This document shows, piece by piece, positions 52,173 to 61,122 of a stretch of 64,000 nt of DNA (position 1 is its first letter; each line of letters starts with the position of its first letter). The notes under the pieces were generated by a model. The model worked only from the letters and a program-made list of their open reading frames with translations, had not been told where the DNA came from and searched no databases. The position numbers and the translations under genes were made by a program. The DNA is from an uncultured Chryseobacterium sp. (GTDB taxonomy: Bacteria > Bacteroidota > Bacteroidia > Flavobacteriales > Weeksellaceae): NCBI RefSeq assembly GCF_913778085.1, contig NZ_CAJYXJ010000008.1. One strand, given 5' to 3'.

Positions 52173-52435
52173 TAAATCATTTTTGGACAACTTTTTGCTA
52201 AGTATAACCAATCGGTTACACAAAATCAATATATTAAAGCGGTGTATGAATAATATTTAACATAATGCACATCTAAATTATATTTATTCTAAAAAAAACT
52301 GAAATTCTGAAAACACCTACAGGAAAAGACGTACAGGAGATTTTATTGAAAAAAATATGAGAGTATCCAGAATATCAGATGGAATTAAATGACAATGGCA
52401 TGAATATTATTGTAATACATGAAAAAACCTTAGAG

Positions 52436-52738
52436 ATGGAAAACTTATCAGAAAATAAAGAATTAATTAACAACTATTTAAATTTTATCATTCAGCAGCA
52501 ATTTAATTTACAGATTGATCTTACTGATGAATATACTTTCATAGACAATTTGGTTTCAAGAAAACCTATTATTGCAACGACTTTTTCAGATAAAATTTTA
52601 TCTGATCCTGAAATTAAAATGTTTCTTACATCATTAATAACGGAGATCAATACAGGAAACTGCACGATCAAGTTTATGAAGACGAAAATGAAAAATTACC
52701 CTCAATCCAACTGGAGTTCATTCAGAAGAATTGTTTAA
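52436..52738 (+). CDS. Hypothetical protein
   Basis: MENLSENKEL...; start moved to 52436; terminator aaaagtccctgca...tgcagggactttt follows. Confidence 0.75.
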   Translation: MENLSENKELINNYLNFIIQQQFNLQIDLTDEYTFIDNLVSRKPIIATTFSDKILSDPEIKMFLTSLITEINTGNCTIKFMKTKMKNYPQSNWSSFRRIV

Positions 52739-52814
52739 CGTAAAATCCGGAAAATTTATAAAATAAAAGTCCCTGCATCATCTGCAGGGACTTTTATCTT
52801 TGAGATTACCTTCT

Positions 52815-53177
52815 TCATTGCAGGTATTGCGCTACTTTATCTTCAAGGTCTTCCAGGTTGAACGGCTTCGCTACATAATCATCGGCCTGTGCCTGTTTGG
52901 CCAAAGCCACAATATCATTATTGGCCGTAACATAGATCACCGGGATGTTTTTAAATTCCTCATGATTCTTCAGGAGCCTGGTAGCCTCCACTCCGCCTAT
53001 TTTAGGGATCCAGTTGTCCATAAGGATCACATCAGGCTGATAACGGGCGACCTTCTCCAGGATATCATGGGAGGTTTCTGAAATTTCCACATGATAGCCG
53101 TTTTCTTCAAAGATGATCGTAATCACCTCAAGAATGGTTTTATCATCATCGAAGATCAGGATTTTCTTCTTACTCAT
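52815..53177 (-). CDS. Single-domain response regulator
   Basis: ILIFDDD, ILMD, VAKPF. Confidence 0.95.
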   Translation of the reverse strand: MSKKKILIFDDDKTILEVITIIFEENGYHVEISETSHDILEKVARYQPDVILMDNWIPKIGGVEATRLLKNHEEFKNIPVIYVTANNDIVALAKQAQADDYVAKPFNLEDLEDKVAQYLQ

Positions 53178-53215
53178 ACTAATTTTATATTTTTACGTAG
53201 TTAGGGATTTTATTC

Positions 53216-53788
53216 TTATAGCTGATTAATATAATTCGCTAAGTTACCTGAATTAATAATTAAATCATAATCAATTTCTTCCACCGCATGTTTCGGCATA
53301 TAATCCACTTCTGCGGTTTCCGGATCCTGGATCCAGACTTTTCCTCTGTTTTTTTTGATGTATGAAAGGCCTTCCACTCCATCTGCATTAGCCCCCGACA
53401 ATAATATTCCAATCATGTTTTCGCCAAAAATCTCGGCAGCAGACCGGAAAGTTACGTCGATCGAGGGGCGTGAATAGTTCATTTTTTCCGAGCTGTCCAG
53501 GGACATTGTCTTTTTATCTTCAAAAAGCAGATGATAGTCGGCTGGCGCAATGTATATTTTATTGTTCCGGATATCCGTCTTGTCTTCAATTTCGATTACT
53601 TCCACGGCAGAAAACTGCTGAAGCAAGGTCTGTAAAATATTTGTGGTCTGAGCCTTCCTGTGCACGACAAGCAAAATCGGAAAGCGAAGATCTTCGTCCA
53701 GCTTCTTTATCATTTCAATAATAACCTGCAAGCTTCCCGCAGAGCCGCCAATAACAATTAATTCGGTTTTTGTACTGTTCATTTGCAT
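53216..53788 (-). CDS. cheB: CheB methylesterase, catalytic domain only
   Basis: GGSAG (Ser), VVH (His), GANADG (Asp); RPSIDV; no REC domain. Confidence 0.93.
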   Translation of the reverse strand: MQMNSTKTELIVIGGSAGSLQVIIEMIKKLDEDLRFPILLVVHRKAQTTNILQTLLQQFSAVEVIEIEDKTDIRNNKIYIAPADYHLLFEDKKTMSLDSSEKMNYSRPSIDVTFRSAAEIFGENMIGILLSGANADGVEGLSYIKKNRGKVWIQDPETAEVDYMPKHAVEEIDYDLIINSGNLANYINQL

Positions 53789-53800
53789 GGTTTAAAAGCT

Positions 53801-54631
53801 TTAGTGATGATCTATTTTTTTCCAGATTTTCTGATCGCCAACCTGATGATAATTTTTATCTAATTTAGAAAATCTTATTGTTTCTTTTGCCCCCAATGCC
53901 AAAAAGCCTAAATTTTCCAGGCTGTTATCGAACAACCGGAATACCCTTTCCTGCAGACTGCGGTCGAAATAGATCAGCACATTCCGGCAAATAATCAGTT
54001 GAAAGCTGTTGAAAGAGCTGTCCGAAACAAGGTTATGGGTCGACAGAATCAGCTTCTCCTGAAGGCTTTTATCGAATTTCACACTGTCGTAATTGGCTGT
54101 GTAATAATCTGAAAAATCTTTCTTTCCACCGGATTGGATATAGTTCTCGGAGTAAAGTTTCATTTGCTGCAGCGGAAAAACCCCGGCCCTGGCGGTTTCC
54201 AAAACCGATGGGTTAAGATCAGTCCCATAGATCAGAGATTTGTGGTAGAGATTGGCTTCCTTAAGCAAAATCGCCATGGAATAGGCTTCTTCCCCTGTTG
54301 AGCATCCGGCCACCCAGATCCTGATCAGCGGATAAGTACCCAGCTGCGGCAAAATTTTTTCCCGTATGGCTTTAAAAAACTGCGGATCCCGGAACATTTC
54401 GGTAACATTCACCGTTATTTCTTCAATAAACCGTTTCAGGTATTCAGGATCGTTGAGAATGGTATATCGCAATTCTGCGAAGCTGGTAAACCGGTCAATC
54501 AGGCATATACGGTTCACGCGACGCTTGAATGAAGCGCGGCTGTATTCCGAAAAATCGTACCCGTACATATCGTAGACATCCTTGATCAGAAACTCTACTT
54601 CTGCATCTTTTATAATACTTGGTTCCAGCAT
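53801..54631 (-). CDS. cheR: CheR protein-glutamate O-methyltransferase
   Basis: TEMFRD, IWVAGCSTGEEAYS, HNL, CRNVLIYF. Confidence 0.95.
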   Translation of the reverse strand: MLEPSIIKDAEVEFLIKDVYDMYGYDFSEYSRASFKRRVNRICLIDRFTSFAELRYTILNDPEYLKRFIEEITVNVTEMFRDPQFFKAIREKILPQLGTYPLIRIWVAGCSTGEEAYSMAILLKEANLYHKSLIYGTDLNPSVLETARAGVFPLQQMKLYSENYIQSGGKKDFSDYYTANYDSVKFDKSLQEKLILSTHNLVSDSSFNSFQLIICRNVLIYFDRSLQERVFRLFDNSLENLGFLALGAKETIRFSKLDKNYHQVGDQKIWKKIDHH

Positions 54632-54997
54632 TTATGTAAGCTTTTCAATAGCTGTTATCAGTTTATCCACATCAATCGGCTTGGATATATAATCATGTGC
54701 TCCGGCATCCAGACATTTTTGTCGGTCTTCCGGCATGGCCTGGGCCGTAACCGCAATAATAGGAATATGCTTTACAGATGGTATTTCTTTAATGATTTTT
54801 ATAGCCTGGTATCCATCCATTTCGGGCATCATCATATCCATCAGCACTGCCTGGAAATTGTTGTCATTCTCTAAAACCGATATGGCCTCCTGAGCCATGG
54901 TGCAGCTTTCAGTCTGATAGCCCCGAGCTTTCAGCGTGAGTTTGAGGGCAAATATGTTACGCGGATCATCGTCCACAATGAGAATTTTCTTATTCAT
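54632..54997 (-). CDS. Single-domain response regulator
   Basis: ILIVDDD, LMDMMMP, TA, YISKP. Confidence 0.95.
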   Translation of the reverse strand: MNKKILIVDDDPRNIFALKLTLKARGYQTESCTMAQEAISVLENDNNFQAVLMDMMMPEMDGYQAIKIIKEIPSVKHIPIIAVTAQAMPEDRQKCLDAGAHDYISKPIDVDKLITAIEKLT

Positions 54998-55012
54998 CAG
55001 AATTCTGGCTGT

Positions 55013-58000
55013 TTAACTTTCATATAACCAAACACGAAGCAGGGAGAGAAGCTGATCGATGTCCACCGGTTTCGATATATAATCCGAAGCTCCCGCGGTG
55101 ATACATTTTTCGCGCTCCCCGATCATTGATTTTGCAGTAATGGCAATAATAGGAAGCCGTGCAAATTTCGGCATTTTTCTAATCTCTTTTATGGTTTCGT
55201 ATCCGTCCAGCTCAGGCATCATCATGTCCATCAGGATCACATCGACGTCCGGATTTTCTTTAATCTGCTGTAGGGCATGCTTCCCATCCATTGCGACCAC
55301 AGCTTCTACTTTGTATTTCTCCAAAGCTTTCGTTAAAGAGAAAATGTTTCGTACATCATCATCGGTAATCAGGATCTTTTTGCCGCTCAGCACTTCTGTT
55401 AAGGAACCTAAAGCCTTGTTTCTTACCGTCTCTATGGAATTGTTCTTTTCCTCCACCAGATGTAAGAACAGGCCTACCTCATCCAGGATTCTTTGATAAG
55501 AATGTGCTGTTTTCACCACAATAGAATCGGCATACTGCTTTATTTTCAGTTCTTCAGATTTGGACAGATTCCTTTCGGTGAAAATAATAATCGGCAGATT
55601 TTCCAGTCCGTCGTAGCTTTTGATGGATTCTACAATCTGGTATTCATTTCCTTTTGATGATCCGATATCTAAGATGACACAGTCTACACGATCGGAAGTA
55701 AGAGCTTTTACACTGTCTTCCACGTTATTTTCCACAGAGAGCGAAATATTGAAATTGCTCAAGAAATAAGACAACGCACTGGCATGTTTGGCGTTTTCTT
55801 CAACGATTAAAACTTTCTGCGGTCCTTTTTTCAGGGCTTCTTCAATTTTTTTGAACACTTCGGTCATCTGATCCAAAGCTACCGGCTTGCTGATAAAATC
55901 AATAGCCCCCTTCATTAAGCTTTCTTTTTTTACATGCAATGAAGACATCATATGAACGGGTATATTCCTGGTATCTGCATTTGATTTTAAATCATCCATC
56001 ACCTGCCATCCGTCTTTTACGGGAAGCTGAATATCCAGAAGGATTGCATGAGGCTTATACTGCAGAGCTGCGGCAAGACCACGGTCTCCTCTTACTTCAA
56101 TAACCGCTTTGTAATTCTGCAAACGGGCATATTTCAGCAGGGCTTTGGCAAAATTCGTATCATCTTCAATGATGAGGATTACTTTATCGTCTTTTTTTAT
56201 CCCATTACGGTCATCATCTACATTTTCCGGAATGGCCAGGGTATTGACTTCTTTTTTTACTTCTTCTTCCCCCTCATCCAGAATGTGCTGAATTTCCTCT
56301 ACATCTTCCCGGATGGTTTTTACCAGGCTCTGTTCATTTTCAGCCGGTTTTATTTCTGCAGCTTCTTTTACAGGGATGATCAGGCTGAATTCACTTCCTT
56401 CATCTACCTTACTCTTCAATACCAATTCTCCTCCAAGCAATCTCGCGATTTCACGGCTGATGGATAATCCGAGGCCTGTTCCTCCAAATTTTCTTTTGGT
56501 AGATCCGTCTGCCTGCTGAAAGGCTTCAAAAATAATTTTCTGCTTATCTTCCGCGATACCGATTCCCGTATCTTTTACGGAAAAAACAATAAAGTCTTTC
56601 TTTACGGGATCTTTTTTAATATTCAAATCGATGCTTCCTATTTTGGTAAATTTAAGGGCATTCGACAATAAGTTTCTTAAAACCTGATCTACTCTTAAAC
56701 GATCGGTCTGAATATTTTTCTGAACATCCGCTTCAATATCGATATTAAACTGAAGTTTTTTCTCCTGAAATACCGGATTGAATAGGTTTTTCAGGTCTTT
56801 CACCACATCATCAATAACAACATCCTGATATTCGAGGGTCATTTTTCCGGATTCGATTTTGGCAAGATCAAGAATTTCATCAATCAGGGTTAAAAGGCTA
56901 CTTCCGGAGCTCTGGATTACTTTTGCCGATTCGATCTGGTCTTCATTCAGATTTTCGTCCGGGTTTTCTGCCATCAGCCTTGAAAGGAGAAGAATAGAGT
57001 TTAGTGGCGTTCTCAACTCATGGGACATATTGGCCAGAAATTCCGATTTGTATTTGGTGCTTAAGGCCAGTTCCTCTACTTTTTTCTGAATTTCGTTATT
57101 GCGTTCGGCAATCAGGTGGTTTTTTTCCTCCAGCAGCCTGGATCGCTCTTCAAGCTCGGCATTGGCCTGCATCAGCTCTTCCTGCTGTACTTTCAGCTCT
57201 TCTTCGGATGCCTGCAGTTTCTGCGTCTGTGCTTCGAGCTCCGTATTTAAGTTTTCGAGCTCGGAATGCTGTACCTGCAGCTCTTCGGATTGCGCCTGGG
57301 TCTCTTCCAGCAACTGCTGTTCTTTCTCACGGCCTTTGGCTGCGCTCAGTGCAATTCCGATATTCCTGCTGCATTCCACAAAATAATCGATTCTGTCCTG
57401 TTCATAATTTGAAGTTGAACCAAGTTCCATAATTCCGATCACACTGCCGTCGGCAACAATCGGGATCAGCATAATCCCGTAAATCTGGATTGTACTGCTG
57501 GCAAATGTTACTACAAAATCATCTTCATGCAGGTTGTTGTAAACCTGTGTTTTTTCACTGACAAAAGTCTGGCCCACCATTCCTTCTCCGGGTTCAAAAA
57601 CTTTTTTCATATTATTCTCGAGTCCGAATGCCGTGATCAGCCTCAACAGGCCGTCATCATACATGTAAATGGAACCGTTGATGCATTTTCCATATTCGAT
57701 CAGCTGGTGCAACGCGGAGGTTGCCACTTCTTTTACTGTTTTATTTCCTACGAGCGATTCATTTAAAATCGCAAGCCCCTTCTGACGCCAGTCACTTTTA
57801 TTAATGGTATCAAAAGAAAGCTTCAGTGATTCCGTCATATGGTTTAAGGATTCCACAAGATCCCCCAGGTCATCTTCTGCCGTATCTACCACTTTCTGGC
57901 TGTAATCCCCATTGGCTACGCGGTTGGCAATCTTTTGGATGGCACTTACCCTCCTGGATATTTCCAGGTCTTTAGCCCTCAGCATTTTTTCCAGTTTTTC

Positions 58001-58624
58001 CCTTCGGATAAGGTCAGACCTCAGTTTAAGGTAGAATACGGTGGTTACAATAATGGCGGCAATGGCAGAAAATATAATGAACATCACCGTAGTATTCGAT
58101 GAACGGTTAAGATCTCTGTTTTTAATGGCCAGCTGATTTTCTTCATATTGTGAAAATTCCTTCACGATTTGTCTGCTTCTGTCCATATAGGCCTTACTTT
58201 CCTGGATCTGCTGCTTCGTCATCAACATTCCTTTCCTTCGGTTTTGCACAAACAGTTTAAGACTGGCCAGGTTATGCTTTACATTCTGCTCCAGCTCGTC
58301 CAGAAGTTTTTTCTGATGCGGATCCGTAATTTCCAGGCTTCTGGCATACTGAAAGGTTTTGGAATAGTCCGCAAGGCTGCGGTTGAAGGGTTCGAGGAAA
58401 CTTTCCTGACCCGTAAGCTGATAACCTCTGTTACCGGTTTCGGCATCCAGAAGGGATAGCATTACATCTTTTACAGCAGTTACCGCCCTTCGGCTTTTCC
58501 CCACACTTTCACGGTGGTTCATCTGGTTCTGAATGCTGAAATAAGAAGCTACCGAACTCGCCATTAAAATAATAAGGGAAAACCCTACTCCAAACTGAAG
58601 ATTTCGTATAATTTTTTTTGGCAT
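55013..58624 (-). CDS. Hybrid histidine kinase: CHASE3-HAMP-GAF-coiled coil-HisKA-HATPase-3xREC
   Basis: DAETGNRGY, FLANMSHELRTPLN, NLLSNALKF, GGTGLGL, three REC domains. Confidence 0.93.
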   Translation of the reverse strand: MPKKIIRNLQFGVGFSLIILMASSVASYFSIQNQMNHRESVGKSRRAVTAVKDVMLSLLDAETGNRGYQLTGQESFLEPFNRSLADYSKTFQYARSLEITDPHQKKLLDELEQNVKHNLASLKLFVQNRRKGMLMTKQQIQESKAYMDRSRQIVKEFSQYEENQLAIKNRDLNRSSNTTVMFIIFSAIAAIIVTTVFYLKLRSDLIRREKLEKMLRAKDLEISRRVSAIQKIANRVANGDYSQKVVDTAEDDLGDLVESLNHMTESLKLSFDTINKSDWRQKGLAILNESLVGNKTVKEVATSALHQLIEYGKCINGSIYMYDDGLLRLITAFGLENNMKKVFEPGEGMVGQTFVSEKTQVYNNLHEDDFVVTFASSTIQIYGIMLIPIVADGSVIGIMELGSTSNYEQDRIDYFVECSRNIGIALSAAKGREKEQQLLEETQAQSEELQVQHSELENLNTELEAQTQKLQASEEELKVQQEELMQANAELEERSRLLEEKNHLIAERNNEIQKKVEELALSTKYKSEFLANMSHELRTPLNSILLLSRLMAENPDENLNEDQIESAKVIQSSGSSLLTLIDEILDLAKIESGKMTLEYQDVVIDDVVKDLKNLFNPVFQEKKLQFNIDIEADVQKNIQTDRLRVDQVLRNLLSNALKFTKIGSIDLNIKKDPVKKDFIVFSVKDTGIGIAEDKQKIIFEAFQQADGSTKRKFGGTGLGLSISREIARLLGGELVLKSKVDEGSEFSLIIPVKEAAEIKPAENEQSLVKTIREDVEEIQHILDEGEEEVKKEVNTLAIPENVDDDRNGIKKDDKVILIIEDDTNFAKALLKYARLQNYKAVIEVRGDRGLAAALQYKPHAILLDIQLPVKDGWQVMDDLKSNADTRNIPVHMMSSLHVKKESLMKGAIDFISKPVALDQMTEVFKKIEEALKKGPQKVLIVEENAKHASALSYFLSNFNISLSVENNVEDSVKALTSDRVDCVILDIGSSKGNEYQIVESIKSYDGLENLPIIIFTERNLSKSEELKIKQYADSIVVKTAHSYQRILDEVGLFLHLVEEKNNSIETVRNKALGSLTEVLSGKKILITDDDVRNIFSLTKALEKYKVEAVVAMDGKHALQQIKENPDVDVILMDMMMPELDGYETIKEIRKMPKFARLPIIAITAKSMIGEREKCITAGASDYISKPVDIDQLLSLLRVWLYES

Positions 58625-58629
58625 GAAAA

Positions 58630-60120
58630 CTAATTTAATGGTAAAGTAAAATAGAATGTGGAACCTTCATCAACTTTGCTGGAAACTCCGATGTTGCCAT
58701 GGTGCTGCTTGATGATCTCGGAGCAGATGAAAAGCCCGATACCCATTCCCTGGAACTGGAGCGAAGATTCTTCGACACGGTAAAATTTATGAAAAACAGC
58801 TTCCTGCTTATAATCCGGAATCCCGATTCCGAAATCGGTAACGTTTACTTTTACTTCCTGTTCTTCTTCATCCAGAAAGGTTGTGACAATTACCTGGTTG
58901 TTATTCGGAGAATATTTTATGGCGTTGGTAAGGAAATTAATTAAAACCTGCTCAATGCGGATCGCATCAATAGGGATTAAAATATCCGGCAGAATGCCGT
59001 CGCGTTTTATTTTTACTCTGTTTTCATCATGGGTCTGAAGAATCGTATCGATGGCATTGTTGATAACACTCGCAAGATTGGTAGGTTTCCTGGTGATTTT
59101 CAGCTTACCGTTCTCAATTTTGGAAACATCAAGAAGATCGGTGATCAGGGTATTAAGCTTTTCGATCTGGTCCTGGACTTTAGCAACAAATCCGGCCTCG
59201 GTACTTTCTTTATTCAATTTCAGTTTTCTTTCGAGAAGCTGAACATAAGCTTTAATGCTCGTTAAAGGCGTTTTAAGTTCATGGCTGGCGATACTCAGGA
59301 ACTCATCTTTTTCCTTTTCCACTTTTTTCTGATCATCAATATCAGTAAAGGTTCCCACCCAGTTTTTGATGTTGTTTTCCTCATGCACAGGCGTGACGCG
59401 AAGAAGATGATACCGGTAATTTCCTGTCTCTCTGTTCTTAATCCTGACTTCCATTTCTAAGGCTTTGCCTTTTTTCCTGCACCGTTCCAGCTCTTCGCGA
59501 ATTTTGAAATCATCAGGATGTGTTTCAGGGAAATGTTTATCAGACTCCGAGTATTCATACCACTTTACGTTGACGAAATCGACAATTCCATTTTCATTCA
59601 GCGTAAAGGCAATCTGCGGTAGAGATTCCAGCATCAGGTGAAAGTGGTCAATCTGTGATTTCATGGTCACCTGCGATTCCCTTCTACCTTTTACTTCAAG
59701 CTCCAGGCTCTGCTGCGTCTTTTTCATCGCAATGTTCTGTTCCTGCAGATTATAAAAGGTTTTTACTTTAAGGAGAAGAATCTCAGGATCCACCGGCTTG
59801 GTTACATAATCTTTTCCACCAGAGGCATAACCTCTGGTGATAAATTTTTTTTCAGTATTTACTGCCGACAGGAATATAATCGGCACTTCTTTTGTTTTGC
59901 TGTATCCGGCCAGCGTTTCGGCAACTTCAAAACCATCCATGTCAGGCATCTGTACATCCAGGATGATCAGGGCATAATCATTTTTAAGGGCTTTGCCCAG
60001 AGCCTGCTCACCTGAATCCGCTGTGTCTACCTGAAAATCTTTGGACTCAAGCAATTTTTTAAGTGAATAAAGATTACTTTGGTTGTCATCAACAATTAAG
60101 ATCATAGAAACTAAAATCAA
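58630..60120 (-). CDS. REC-PAS histidine kinase
   Basis: LIVDD...DVQMP; PAS-like segment; SHELKTPL, GMGIGL; start may be 60105. Confidence 0.93.
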   Translation of the reverse strand: MILVSMILIVDDNQSNLYSLKKLLESKDFQVDTADSGEQALGKALKNDYALIILDVQMPDMDGFEVAETLAGYSKTKEVPIIFLSAVNTEKKFITRGYASGGKDYVTKPVDPEILLLKVKTFYNLQEQNIAMKKTQQSLELEVKGRRESQVTMKSQIDHFHLMLESLPQIAFTLNENGIVDFVNVKWYEYSESDKHFPETHPDDFKIREELERCRKKGKALEMEVRIKNRETGNYRYHLLRVTPVHEENNIKNWVGTFTDIDDQKKVEKEKDEFLSIASHELKTPLTSIKAYVQLLERKLKLNKESTEAGFVAKVQDQIEKLNTLITDLLDVSKIENGKLKITRKPTNLASVINNAIDTILQTHDENRVKIKRDGILPDILIPIDAIRIEQVLINFLTNAIKYSPNNNQVIVTTFLDEEEQEVKVNVTDFGIGIPDYKQEAVFHKFYRVEESSLQFQGMGIGLFICSEIIKQHHGNIGVSSKVDEGSTFYFTLPLN

Positions 60121-60690: not shown

Positions 60691-61122
60691 ATGTCGATAA
60701 AAATACAAGTCGCTGTCTGCACAAAATGCAAAGGCTATTTTTCAGCTGCACCTCTAGAACAAAAAAATGCAAATCATCCGGATATTATCGATCATTTTTT
60801 CTATCATGGTGAACCTTGGTTTACTTTAGAATGCAAAACTTTCGAGAAATCAAGAAATATGGAAGATACGAAGGTTGTTATTACTGATCTCGAAGAACAT
60901 ACTAAGAACGATCATAATTACTGTCATTGTAAAAAGAAAGAGGTTTCCGCCCGATTACAGTACTCTTATGAATCTTCTCAACTTGAGAAATATGTCCCTT
61001 ATCTGGAAAAGAATGAGATGGAAACGGAAATTTATTTCAAAGATCTTTACTATACCTATAATAATTTTCATGGTATCGCTGCATCGGGCCACCAGAGGAG
61101 TTCAGGTACGAAATTCCGCTGA
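60691..61122 (+). CDS. Hypothetical Cys/His-containing protein
   Basis: 143 aa; CTKC and HNYCHC; 12 nt before xth. Confidence 0.7.
   Translation: MSIKIQVAVCTKCKGYFSAAPLEQKNANHPDIIDHFFYHGEPWFTLECKTFEKSRNMEDTKVVITDLEEHTKNDHNYCHCKKKEVSARLQYSYESSQLEKYVPYLEKNEMETEIYFKDLYYTYNNFHGIAASGHQRSSGTKFR

What the first reader, a model, noticed from the sequence alone, without database searches (positions are those of the whole stretch)
52815..60120. Chemoreceptor-less CheR/CheB module; the hybrid kinase carries an E/Q-rich coiled coil that may be the methylation substrate
Seen: a same-strand cluster of REC-PAS-HK, CHASE3-HAMP-GAF-HK-3xREC, REC, CheR, REC-less CheB with intact Ser/His/Asp, and REC. No MCP, CheA or CheW is in the window. 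Between GAF and the H-box (about 57100-57330) lies EETQAQSEELQVQHSELENLNTELEAQTQKLQASEEELKVQQEELMQANAELEERS, with heptad-spaced EE/QE pairs. Known: CheR methylates such pairs in MCP helices, and Flavobacteriia lack flagella. Inference: reversible glutamate methylation tunes a histidine kinase directly. The gene arrangement is widespread; I am not aware that the substrate is established.
Basis: partly seen in the sequence, partly recalled or inferred. Interest (0 to 1): 0.66.

Follow-up and report, generated by a model that had tools for sequence, protein, structure and literature searches.

The report
Kinase with methyl-accepting coil (MAC2)
A Chryseobacterium operon pairs a sensor kinase that carries a conserved, very acidic helix with the chemotaxis-type enzymes CheR and CheB. 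This arrangement was named "MAC2" by bioinformaticians in 2010, and no experiment testing it turned up in my searches.

Summary
On the minus strand, 60120..52815 is a six-gene operon: REC-PAS-HK; CHASE3-HAMP-GAF-coil-HK-3xREC; REC; CheR; a REC-less CheB with an intact Ser/His/Asp triad; REC. A strong terminator follows. The window holds no MCP, CheA or CheW.

The E/Q-rich peptide lies at 57307..57143 (aa 440-494). It is a conserved sequence family, not a generic coiled coil. Leu is invariant at position d and two Asn at position a. Repeated (S/T/Q)(N/Q)EEL heptads are present. Coil length varies only in steps of seven residues.

In the first, phylogenetically broad set of 80 loci (more than 10 phyla), 44 of the 50 strong matches with enough flank have CheR 2-4 kb downstream, usually followed by a REC-less CheB and a REC-HK partner.

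Wuichet and Zhulin (2010) defined "methyl-accepting coiled-coil" proteins. MAC2 is the class with separate CheR and CheB genes, and MiST3 carries models for it. A 2022 preprint says MAC proteins are experimentally uncharacterised, and I found nothing later.

Some evidence weakens the MCP analogy. There is no MCP-type methylation consensus. The coil is predicted as one straight helix, not a hairpin. Many relatives lack an adjacent CheR.

Verdict: a new member of a known, predicted class. The kinase as substrate is likely (about 0.6) but unproven.

The parts
58630..60120 (-). Partner kinase with architecture REC-PAS-HisKA-HATPase. The REC has the canonical D/D/D/S/K residues. The start is probably the ATG at 60105.
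   Evidence: Pfam, REC alignment, Logan gene call of 491 aa. A REC-HK(-REC) gene lies beside the MAC kinase in most related loci.
55013..58624 (-). MAC2-type membrane hybrid histidine kinase, 1203 aa: TM1, CHASE3, TM2, HAMP, GAF, coil, HisKA, HATPase, three REC domains.
   Evidence: Pfam. Hydrophobic segments at about aa 9-31 and 175-202.
58118..58513 (-). CHASE3 extracytoplasmic sensor domain (aa 38-169).
   Evidence: Pfam PF05227, E = 6.6e-22.
57821..57961 (-). HAMP domain (aa 222-268).
   Evidence: Pfam PF00672.
57347..57742 (-). GAF domain (aa 295-426).
   Evidence: Pfam PF13185.
57050..57328 (-). Conserved acidic coiled coil (aa 433-525), the proposed methyl-accepting region. Leu at position d in successive heptads, N460 and N488 at position a, and (S/T/Q)(N/Q)EEL heptads.
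   Evidence: Heptad print-out, alignments, family HMM 75 bits, E = 2e-21. AF2 predicts a continuous helix over aa 402-553 with pLDDT about 97.
57143..57307 (-). Candidate sites at position c are E448, E455, E462, E476 and E483. Columns that mix E and Q across the family are 441, 474 and 490.
56366..57049 (-). Kinase core: HisKA (aa 526-593, with H535 in the SHELRTPLN box) and HATPase_c (aa 641-753).
   Evidence: Pfam, alignment.
55841..56191 (-). REC-a (aa 812-928), with E/D/D/S/K residues. Plausibly functional.
55502..55825 (-). REC-b (aa 934-1041). Degenerate: EE in the acidic pocket, no MPxxDG motif, KT instead of KP. Probably a pseudo-receiver.
55031..55387 (-). REC-c (aa 1080-1198). Canonical residues. 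Ends in the conserved LLSLLRVWLY motif.
54632..54997 (-). Stand-alone REC, 121 aa. Canonical residues. 43% identical to REC-c of the kinase.
53801..54631 (-). CheR-family glutamate O-methyltransferase of the MAC2-associated subfamily.
   Evidence: Pfam, PDB alignment. It is 41-61% identical to CheRs next to MAC kinases in other phyla and 28% identical to E. coli CheR.
53216..53788 (-). CheB methylesterase/deamidase catalytic domain only, without REC. Triad S16/H43/D136.
   Evidence: Pfam, alignment to 3sft. The CheB ORFs detected next to MAC kinases carry no REC label.
52815..53177 (-). Stand-alone REC, 120 aa. Canonical residues. Last gene of the operon.
52760..52800 (-). Intrinsic-terminator-like hairpin with an 18-bp stem and a T-rich tail. 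Marks the end of the operon.

Best explanation
This is a MAC2-type sensory system: a two-component kinase that carries its own adaptation (methylation) region.

Proposed mechanism, step by step.
1. The membrane hybrid kinase senses an unknown signal through its extracytoplasmic CHASE3 domain.
2. The signal passes through HAMP and GAF into a helix of about 100 residues. In the dimer this helix would form a marginally stable, highly acidic, parallel coiled coil that runs straight into the DHp helix bearing His535.
3. The operon's CheR methylates surface glutamates in the repeated (S/T/Q)(N/Q)EEL heptads. The most likely sites are the position-c Glu residues 448, 455, 462, 476 and 483, and perhaps 441, 474 and 490.
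4. The REC-less CheB removes the methyl groups, and deamidates Gln where Gln is encoded at those positions.
5. Neutralising these charges changes the stability or register of the coil, and so resets kinase output. This gives the kinase a memory or adaptation function like that of chemoreceptors.
6. Output runs through the kinase's own receiver domains to the conserved REC-HK partner and the single-domain REC proteins.

Shown here: the anatomy, the conservation of the coil, the gene linkage, and the intact catalytic residues.

Inferred: that the coil is the substrate, which residues are modified, the effect on the kinase, and the phosphorelay route.
For: 1. The coil is a specific family, not a generic coiled coil. 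Leu at position d, N460 and N488 are invariant or nearly so. Gln at e/g positions and Glu at positions 448, 455 and 483 are nearly invariant from Bacteroidota to Cyanobacteria and Pseudomonadota.
2. Coil length between LL(E/K) and KYKSEF is 65, 79, 86, 93 or 100 residues in 56 loci. All are 2 mod 7, and all 140 gap runs are 7, 14 or 28 long. The register to the catalytic His is therefore under selection.
3. Gene linkage. Of 53 loci scoring at least 42.9 bits on the coil HMM, 44 have CheR 2-4 kb downstream on the same strand. Three of the nine without it are truncated contigs. 37 loci also have CheB. The recurring gene order is MAC-HK, CheR, CheB, REC-HK.
4. Only 1 of these 80 loci has an MCP within 10 kb, and none has CheW or CheA-P5.
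5. Fusion evidence. A Nostoc protein joins CheB and CheR to a ...SNEELQSTNEELETAKEEIQATNEELNTINDELQ... coil, PAS and HK (the MAC1 type). It carries the same xNEEL heptad.
6. The CheR and CheB next to MAC kinases form their own subfamily: CheR is 41-61% identical across phyla, against 28% to E. coli CheR.
7. Columns 441, 474, 490 and (in the cyanobacterial clade) 483 mix E and Q, as chemoreceptor sites do.
8. A Gemmatimonadales subclade without adjacent CheR/CheB has replaced E448 by G/S/N and E455 by A/V. E455 is present in 65 of 66 CheR-linked coils.
9. The enzymes look active.
10. The prediction has been published as the MAC class.
Against: 1. No experiment exists, either here or in the literature I could search.
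2. No protein of the operon matches the MCP methylation consensus. No profile similarity to Tar was found.
3. AF2 predicts a single straight helix, so CheR would have to recognise a two-helix coil rather than a four-helix bundle.
4. Most candidate Glu residues are invariant rather than E/Q-variable.
5. In the cyanobacteria/Acidobacteria/Gemmatimonadota clade only 23 of 77 MAC coils have CheR within 10 kb, yet the coil remains well conserved. Much of its conservation could therefore reflect signal transmission alone.
6. Gln at the E/Q columns is not depleted in loci that lack CheB (small sample).
7. The Glu-loss argument rests on essentially one lineage, so the Fisher p-values are not phylogenetically independent.
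Confidence: 0.6

Rival explanations
1. CheR and CheB modify a different protein of the same system, for example a receiver domain or the REC-HK partner. On this view the acidic coil is only a signal-transmitting helix.
For: CheR can methylate a response regulator: PhoP in Salmonella, at EE/ED pairs (PMC8546571, listed; abstract only read). REC proteins and a REC-HK partner are conserved beside CheR/CheB. The coil stays conserved in many loci without adjacent CheR. No MCP-type site motif is present in the coil.
Against: MAC1 proteins fuse CheB-CheR directly to a coil with the same xNEEL heptads. The position-c Glu residues are strictly conserved exactly where CheR is linked. The small REC genes are not conserved outside Bacteroidota.
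Confidence: 0.15
2. The coil's conservation and the CheR/CheB linkage are functionally unrelated. The true substrate is an unidentified protein encoded elsewhere, or the enzymes have another role.
For: The linkage is imperfect: 6 of 50 loci in the broad set and 54 of 77 coils in the second clade lack adjacent CheR. No direct evidence exists for any substrate.
Against: The same gene order recurs in more than 10 phyla. A dedicated CheR/CheB subfamily exists. The MAC1 fusion links enzymes and coil in one chain.
Confidence: 0.1
3. Conventional MCPs encoded elsewhere in the genome are the substrates, and the operon position of CheR/CheB is incidental.
For: Only 64 kb of the genome was visible. [quoted passage not shown]
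Against: No MCP, CheA or CheW is in the window, and 79 of the first 80 related loci have none within 10 kb. From general knowledge, not tested here, Flavobacteriia are non-flagellated and generally lack MCP, CheA and CheW. The preprint notes proteome clusters that have MAC components only. This CheR is only 28% identical to E. coli CheR. By my reading of the alignment it also lacks the glycine-rich pentapeptide-binding loop.
Confidence: 0.05
4. The module is a decaying remnant of a chemotaxis system and has no current function.
For: The preprint raises the possibility that MAC systems are degenerate remnants.
Against: CheR is 91-99% identical across Chryseobacterium species. The catalytic residues are intact. 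The operon is compact and ends in a terminator. The same architecture occurs in many phyla.
Confidence: 0.03

Closest known systems
MAC2 class of methyl-accepting coiled-coil proteins (Wuichet and Zhulin 2010, Sci Signal 3:ra50; MiST 3.0)
   Same: A histidine kinase with an internal coiled coil proposed to accept methyl groups. CheR and CheB are encoded as separate neighbouring genes. No CheA, CheW or MCP is in the cluster. This is the definition given.
   Different: Nothing of substance. This is a Chryseobacterium member. The original paper and MiST's MAC2 HMM were not available, so membership was judged from secondary descriptions and from a coil HMM built here.
MAC1 proteins (CheB-CheR-coil-PAS-HK fusions), for example the Nostoc protein in L016 at 13149-17420
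   Same: The same (S/T)NEEL heptad coil, a kinase output, and CheB/CheR of the chemotaxis type.
   Different: In MAC1 the enzymes are fused N-terminal to the coil, the sensor part is PAS, and the protein is soluble. Here the enzymes are separate genes and the kinase is a membrane CHASE3-HAMP-GAF protein. None of the 144 newly returned representatives with a coil like this one carries fused CheB or CheR.
Methyl-accepting chemotaxis proteins (Tar and Tsr of E. coli) with CheR/CheB adaptation
   Same: Proposed reversible Glu methylation on heptad-periodic helices to reset kinase activity. Some candidate columns mix E and Q. Indels preserve the heptad.
   Different: The coil has no MCP signalling domain and no consensus site motif. 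No profile similarity was found. It is predicted as a straight helix rather than a hairpin four-helix bundle. The kinase is in the same polypeptide, so no CheW or CheA is needed. CheB has no receiver domain.
Signalling-helix coiled coils between sensor and DHp in histidine kinases (for example BvgS, PMC4810494, listed)
   Same: A two-helix coiled coil directly precedes DHp, and its stability or dynamics set kinase activity.
   Different: Those coils are short and are not linked to modifying enzymes. This one is about 13 heptads long, strongly acidic, conserved in sequence, and genetically tied to CheR/CheB.
cheR3 (PP_3760) cluster of Pseudomonas putida (inferred, not verified)
   Same: The CheR next to a Pseudomonas MAC kinase (L020) is 95% identical in P. 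putida strains. PP_3760 is annotated cheR3 (PMC6410093). If they are the same gene, a model organism has this system.
   Different: The KT2440 locus itself was not examined. I also recall, from memory only and unverified, that CheR3 failed to methylate chemoreceptors in vitro.

Membership tests
MAC2 (methyl-accepting coiled-coil protein with separate CheR/CheB) | Receptor-like coiled coil and histidine-kinase core in one protein | tested here: met
   The coil (aa 433-525) lies between GAF and HisKA/HATPase. AF2 predicts one continuous helix into DHp.
MAC2 (methyl-accepting coiled-coil protein with separate CheR/CheB) | CheR and CheB homologues associated as separate genes, not fused | tested here: met
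   CheR is at 54631..53801 and CheB at 53788..53216, in the same operon.
MAC2 (methyl-accepting coiled-coil protein with separate CheR/CheB) | The coil belongs to the sequence family that travels with CheR/CheB | tested here: met
   The window scores 75 bits on the coil HMM built here. 44 of the 50 strong matches with adequate flank have CheR downstream. MiST's own MAC2 HMM was not available.
MAC2 (methyl-accepting coiled-coil protein with separate CheR/CheB) | The coil actually accepts methyl groups | not testable with these tools
   This needs biochemistry. The 2022 preprint states that no MAC protein has been characterised.
MAC1 | CheB and CheR domains fused into the kinase polypeptide | tested here: not met
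   The kinase contains no CheB or CheR domain.
Methyl-accepting chemotaxis protein (MCP) | MCP signalling domain (hairpin tip that binds CheA/CheW) | tested here: not met
   No Pfam MCPsignal hit. No phmmer hit with the Tar C-terminal region. hhalign probability 0.07%.
Methyl-accepting chemotaxis protein (MCP) | Methylation consensus [ASTG][ASTG]xx[EQ][EQ]xx[ASTG][ASTG] | tested here: not met
   The regex recovers Tar sites 295, 302, 309 and 491 but finds nothing in the six operon proteins.
Methyl-accepting chemotaxis protein (MCP) | Antiparallel helical hairpin forming a four-helix bundle in the dimer | tested here: not met
   AF2 gives a single helix over aa 402-553, pLDDT about 97. Single, unpaired 7-residue indels occur. 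The model is a monomer, so oligomer packing was not tested.
Canonical chemosensory pathway (flagellar F classes, Tfp, ACF) | CheA and CheW present with CheR/CheB | tested here: not met
   Neither is in the 64-kb window, nor within 10 kb in the first 80 related loci. The rest of the genome was not searchable.
CheB family | Ser-His-Asp catalytic triad | tested here: met
   S16, H43 and D136 align with the triad motifs of 3sft.
CheB family | N-terminal receiver domain that controls activity | tested here: not met
   The protein is 190 aa and has the CheB_methylest domain only. The CheB ORFs detected in related loci carry no REC label either.
CheR family | CheR_N helical domain plus SAM-binding domain with conserved motifs | tested here: met
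   PF03705 and PF01739. The motifs WVAGCSTGEEAYS and CRNVLIYFD align to 5ftw and 1bc5.

The most novel reading that the evidence does not exclude
Glutamate methylation acts directly on a straight, two-stranded signalling helix of a histidine kinase, at position-c Glu residues of (S/T/Q)(N/Q)EEL heptads. The recognition code differs from that of chemoreceptors, and the CheB has no receiver domain. Adaptation would then be built into an ordinary two-component sensor in a bacterium that has neither flagella nor chemoreceptor arrays. Chryseobacterium would be a clean host in which to test the untested MAC hypothesis.
Probability: 0.5. Interest if true: 0.7.

Novelty: new member of a known kind. 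Interest (0 to 1): 0.4.

Why it matters
If the coil is methylated, sensory adaptation by covalent modification is not confined to chemoreceptor arrays. It would also be a general way to tune histidine kinases, present in many phyla. That would change how the outputs of such kinases are modelled. It would also define a second substrate code for CheR/CheB enzymes.

The class has been predicted since 2010, and I found no report of an experimental test. A compact six-gene operon, in a Flavobacteriia host expected from general knowledge (not checked here) to lack MCPs, is a convenient test case.

As a discovery, however, the finding repeats a published prediction.

Tried and rejected
1. Searching with the coil alone through the search for homologous proteins returned only short fragments of 223 aa or less. 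These were useful for alignments but gave no domain context.
2. Pfam family PF28019, attached to some of those fragments, is not in the local Pfam copy. Its meaning stayed unknown.
3. I tested whether Gln at the E/Q columns is depleted where CheB is absent. No signal appeared, and only 10 loci lacked CheB.
4. hhalign of the coil profile against Tar showed no similarity. This is a weak test, because Tar was a single sequence.
5. I asked whether the conserved C-terminal RVWLY motif could be a CheR tether like NWETF. I rejected it as specific evidence, because non-MAC relatives also end in ...RxWL.
6. The first attempt at a coil-only locus scan failed for lack of a conserved stretch. It was repeated with a narrower alignment.
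7. The phmmer search of 1.8 billion representatives with the 65-aa coil gave only 232 hits at E of 0.001 or better. A few were unrelated repeat proteins. It is therefore not a measure of family size.
8. A Pfam scan of the representatives failed because of the residue limit. Local phmmer replaced it.
9. Wuichet and Zhulin 2010 and the P. putida CheR paper could not be opened.
10. Ten literature searches found no experimental work on MAC proteins.
11. NCBIfam has no dedicated model. The best hits, HrmK and EpsF, fall far below their cut-offs.
12. A genome-wide MCP search for this organism is not possible with the tools provided.

Full report
**What is there**

The region 60120..52815 carries six tightly packed genes on the minus strand, with gaps of 0-38 nt. 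Pfam assigns them as follows.
- REC-PAS-HisKA-HATPase (496 aa).
- CHASE3-HAMP-GAF-HisKA-HATPase with three REC domains (1203 aa).
- REC (121 aa).
- CheR_N plus CheR (276 aa).
- CheB_methylest alone (190 aa).
- REC (120 aa).

An 18-bp-stem terminator at 52800..52760 closes the unit. The same six genes are called on an independent Logan contig.

The CheR is 91-99% identical to CheRs of many Chryseobacterium species. C. takakiae has the same cluster (L002).

A phmmer search with E. coli Tar, CheW and CheA against every six-frame ORF of the window finds no MCP, CheW or CheA-P5. The window has no other two-component genes.

**The enzymes and receivers**

CheB aligns with the T. maritima CheB catalytic domain. 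It keeps the GxSxG serine (S16), H43 and D136. CheR keeps the SAM-binding motifs, and its closest solved relative is B. subtilis CheR.

Five of the six receiver domains have canonical acid-pocket, Thr/Ser and Lys residues. The middle receiver of the hybrid kinase is degenerate. The small REC between the kinase and CheR is 43% identical to the kinase's third receiver.

**The coil**

E plus Q make up 47% of it, against 14% for the whole protein. Its net charge is about -13.

The heptad phase is unbroken from about aa 433 to the H-box. Leu or Ile sits at one position, taken as d, in twelve consecutive heptads. The EE, SE, TE and AE pairs sit at positions b and c.

AlphaFold2 was run on aa 400-620 with a 98-sequence alignment. 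It predicts one continuous helix from aa 402 to 553 with pLDDT about 97. The helix runs directly into DHp helix 1 with His535. The coil is therefore a long signalling helix, not an MCP-like hairpin.

**It is a conserved family**

Fragments recovered with the coil and 56 genomic homologues align with few gaps. Across them:
- Leu at position d, N460 and N488 at position a are invariant or nearly so.
- Gln at 443, 452, 466, 480 and 481 is nearly invariant.
- Glu at 448, 455 and 483 is nearly invariant.

The family consensus is a run of (S/T/Q)(N/Q)EEL heptads.

The number of residues between LL(E/K) and KYKSEF is 65, 79, 86, 93 or 100 in all 56 sequences. Every gap run is 7, 14 or 28 long. The register between sensor and catalytic His is thus strictly kept.

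Columns 441, 474 and 490 mix E and Q, and 483 does so in the cyanobacterial clade.

**Linkage to CheR/CheB**

A scan of one genome per species with the coil alignment returned 80 loci from more than ten phyla. A 58-column coil HMM was built from protein fragments of unknown context and used to score them.
- 53 loci score at least 42.9 bits.
- 44 of these have a CheR 2-4 kb downstream on the same strand.
- Three of the nine without CheR are truncated contigs.
- 37 loci also have CheB. No CheB ORF detected there carries a receiver label.

The recurring order is [CHASE3]-GAF-coil-HK-REC-REC-REC, CheR, CheB, REC-HK(-REC). In Chryseobacterium, Flavobacterium and Chitinophagaceae the REC-HK lies upstream instead, and a small REC is inserted before CheR.

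Only one of the 80 loci has an MCP within 10 kb, and none has CheW.

The linked CheRs are 41-61% identical to the window's CheR across phyla, against 28% for E. coli CheR.

In Nostoc, a fusion protein of CheB, CheR, coil, PAS, HK and REC carries SNEELQSTNEELETAKEEIQATNEELNTINDELQ. This is the same heptad motif.

**Limits of the linkage**

A second scan centred on the cyanobacterial, acidobacterial and Gemmatimonadota clade gave 80 more loci. Only 23 of 77 usable coils there have CheR within 10 kb. Some loci have two coil kinases in tandem before a single CheR-CheB pair. One enzyme pair may therefore serve several kinases, including ones encoded elsewhere.

A Gemmatimonadales subclade lacks adjacent CheR/CheB. 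It has E448 replaced by G/S/N and E455 replaced by A/V. E455 is present in 65 of 66 CheR-linked coils, against 44 of 60 unlinked ones. This is suggestive only, because it reflects essentially one lineage.

**Comparison with chemoreceptors**

The MCP methylation consensus finds exactly the four known Tar sites. It finds nothing in the six operon proteins. A profile comparison of the coil with Tar shows no similarity. The predicted fold is a straight helix. If CheR acts here, it uses a different recognition code.

**What is known**

[quoted passage not shown] It also states that profiles for MAC1 and MAC2 were added (PMC6943060).

[quoted passage not shown] My other searches found no experimental follow-up. 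The original 2010 paper could not be opened. NCBIfam has no model for the class.

**Mechanism proposed**

1. The CHASE3 domain senses a signal.
2. HAMP and GAF transmit it to the acidic, marginally stable coiled coil, which has polar residues at position a and a single Leu per heptad.
3. CheR neutralises position-c glutamates, and CheB restores the charge.
4. The resulting change in coil stability or register resets the DHp/CA core.
5. Phosphoryl groups pass to the kinase's own receivers, the REC-HK partner and the small REC proteins.

CheB has no receiver, so feedback must come from the substrate's conformation or from docking on a kinase receiver.

Only the anatomy, conservation, linkage and catalytic residues are shown here. 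The remaining steps are inference.

**Verdict**

The locus is a new member of a known, still untested class. Confidence that the kinase coil is the methyl acceptor is about 0.6.

Noticed in passing
window 55013-55060 (C-terminus of the hybrid kinase); also L002-L081: The third receiver of these kinases ends in a conserved LLSL(L/M)RVW(L/M)(Y/P), within a few residues of the stop codon, in about 60 loci from many phyla. A Trp is also present in non-MAC relatives. It may therefore be a trait of the receiver subfamily rather than a docking site for CheR or CheB.
   Followed up: partly
proteins P0034, P0083, P0101, P0108, P0109, P0120: A precomputed Pfam family, PF28019.1, is attached to several coil-plus-HisKA fragments. 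It is missing from the local Pfam copy, so its name and extent are unknown. It might be a newly curated model covering this coil.
   Followed up: partly
L016 13149-17420 (-); the same arrangement in L083 and L084 (Nostoc): A MAC1-type fusion (CheB-CheR-coil-PAS-HK-REC) lies convergent to a MAC2-type kinase that has no separate CheR/CheB. One enzyme pair may serve two kinases.
   Followed up: partly
L111, L112, L113 (Fischerella, Stigonema): Two hybrid kinases of the GAF-coil-HK-3xREC type stand in tandem before a single CheR-CheB-REC-HK set. In L113 the second kinase falls below the coil-HMM label threshold.
   Followed up: no
L127, L130, L131, L134, L138-L140, L143, L145, L148, L151, L160 (Gemmatimonadales): This subclade has the coil kinase and the REC-HK partner but no CheR/CheB within 10 kb. 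In its coils two otherwise near-invariant glutamates are replaced: E448 by G/S/N and E455 by A/V.
   Followed up: partly
window 55502-55825: The middle receiver domain of the hybrid kinase is degenerate (EE in the acid pocket, no MPxxDG, KT instead of KP). It is probably a pseudo-receiver. The three-receiver layout is conserved across phyla.
   Followed up: partly
L163-L242 (Pseudomonas putida group): The CheR next to the Pseudomonas coil kinase is 86-100% identical across the P. putida group, including the species' type strain. It is probably the gene annotated cheR3 (PP_3760) in KT2440, which would give the system a model-organism handle. The KT2440 locus was not checked.
   Followed up: partly
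window 52379-52738 (+) and 60691-61122 (+): Two small ORFs flank the operon, of 119 aa and 143 aa (the second rich in Cys and His). Neither has a Pfam match. The first is also called as a gene on the Logan contig.
   Followed up: no
window 58630-60120 and 55013-58624: The best NCBIfam matches are the equivalog models EpsF (REC-HK, aligned over its full length) and HrmK (a hybrid kinase). Both score far below their cut-offs. They hint at relatives with named functions, but membership is not supported.
   Followed up: no
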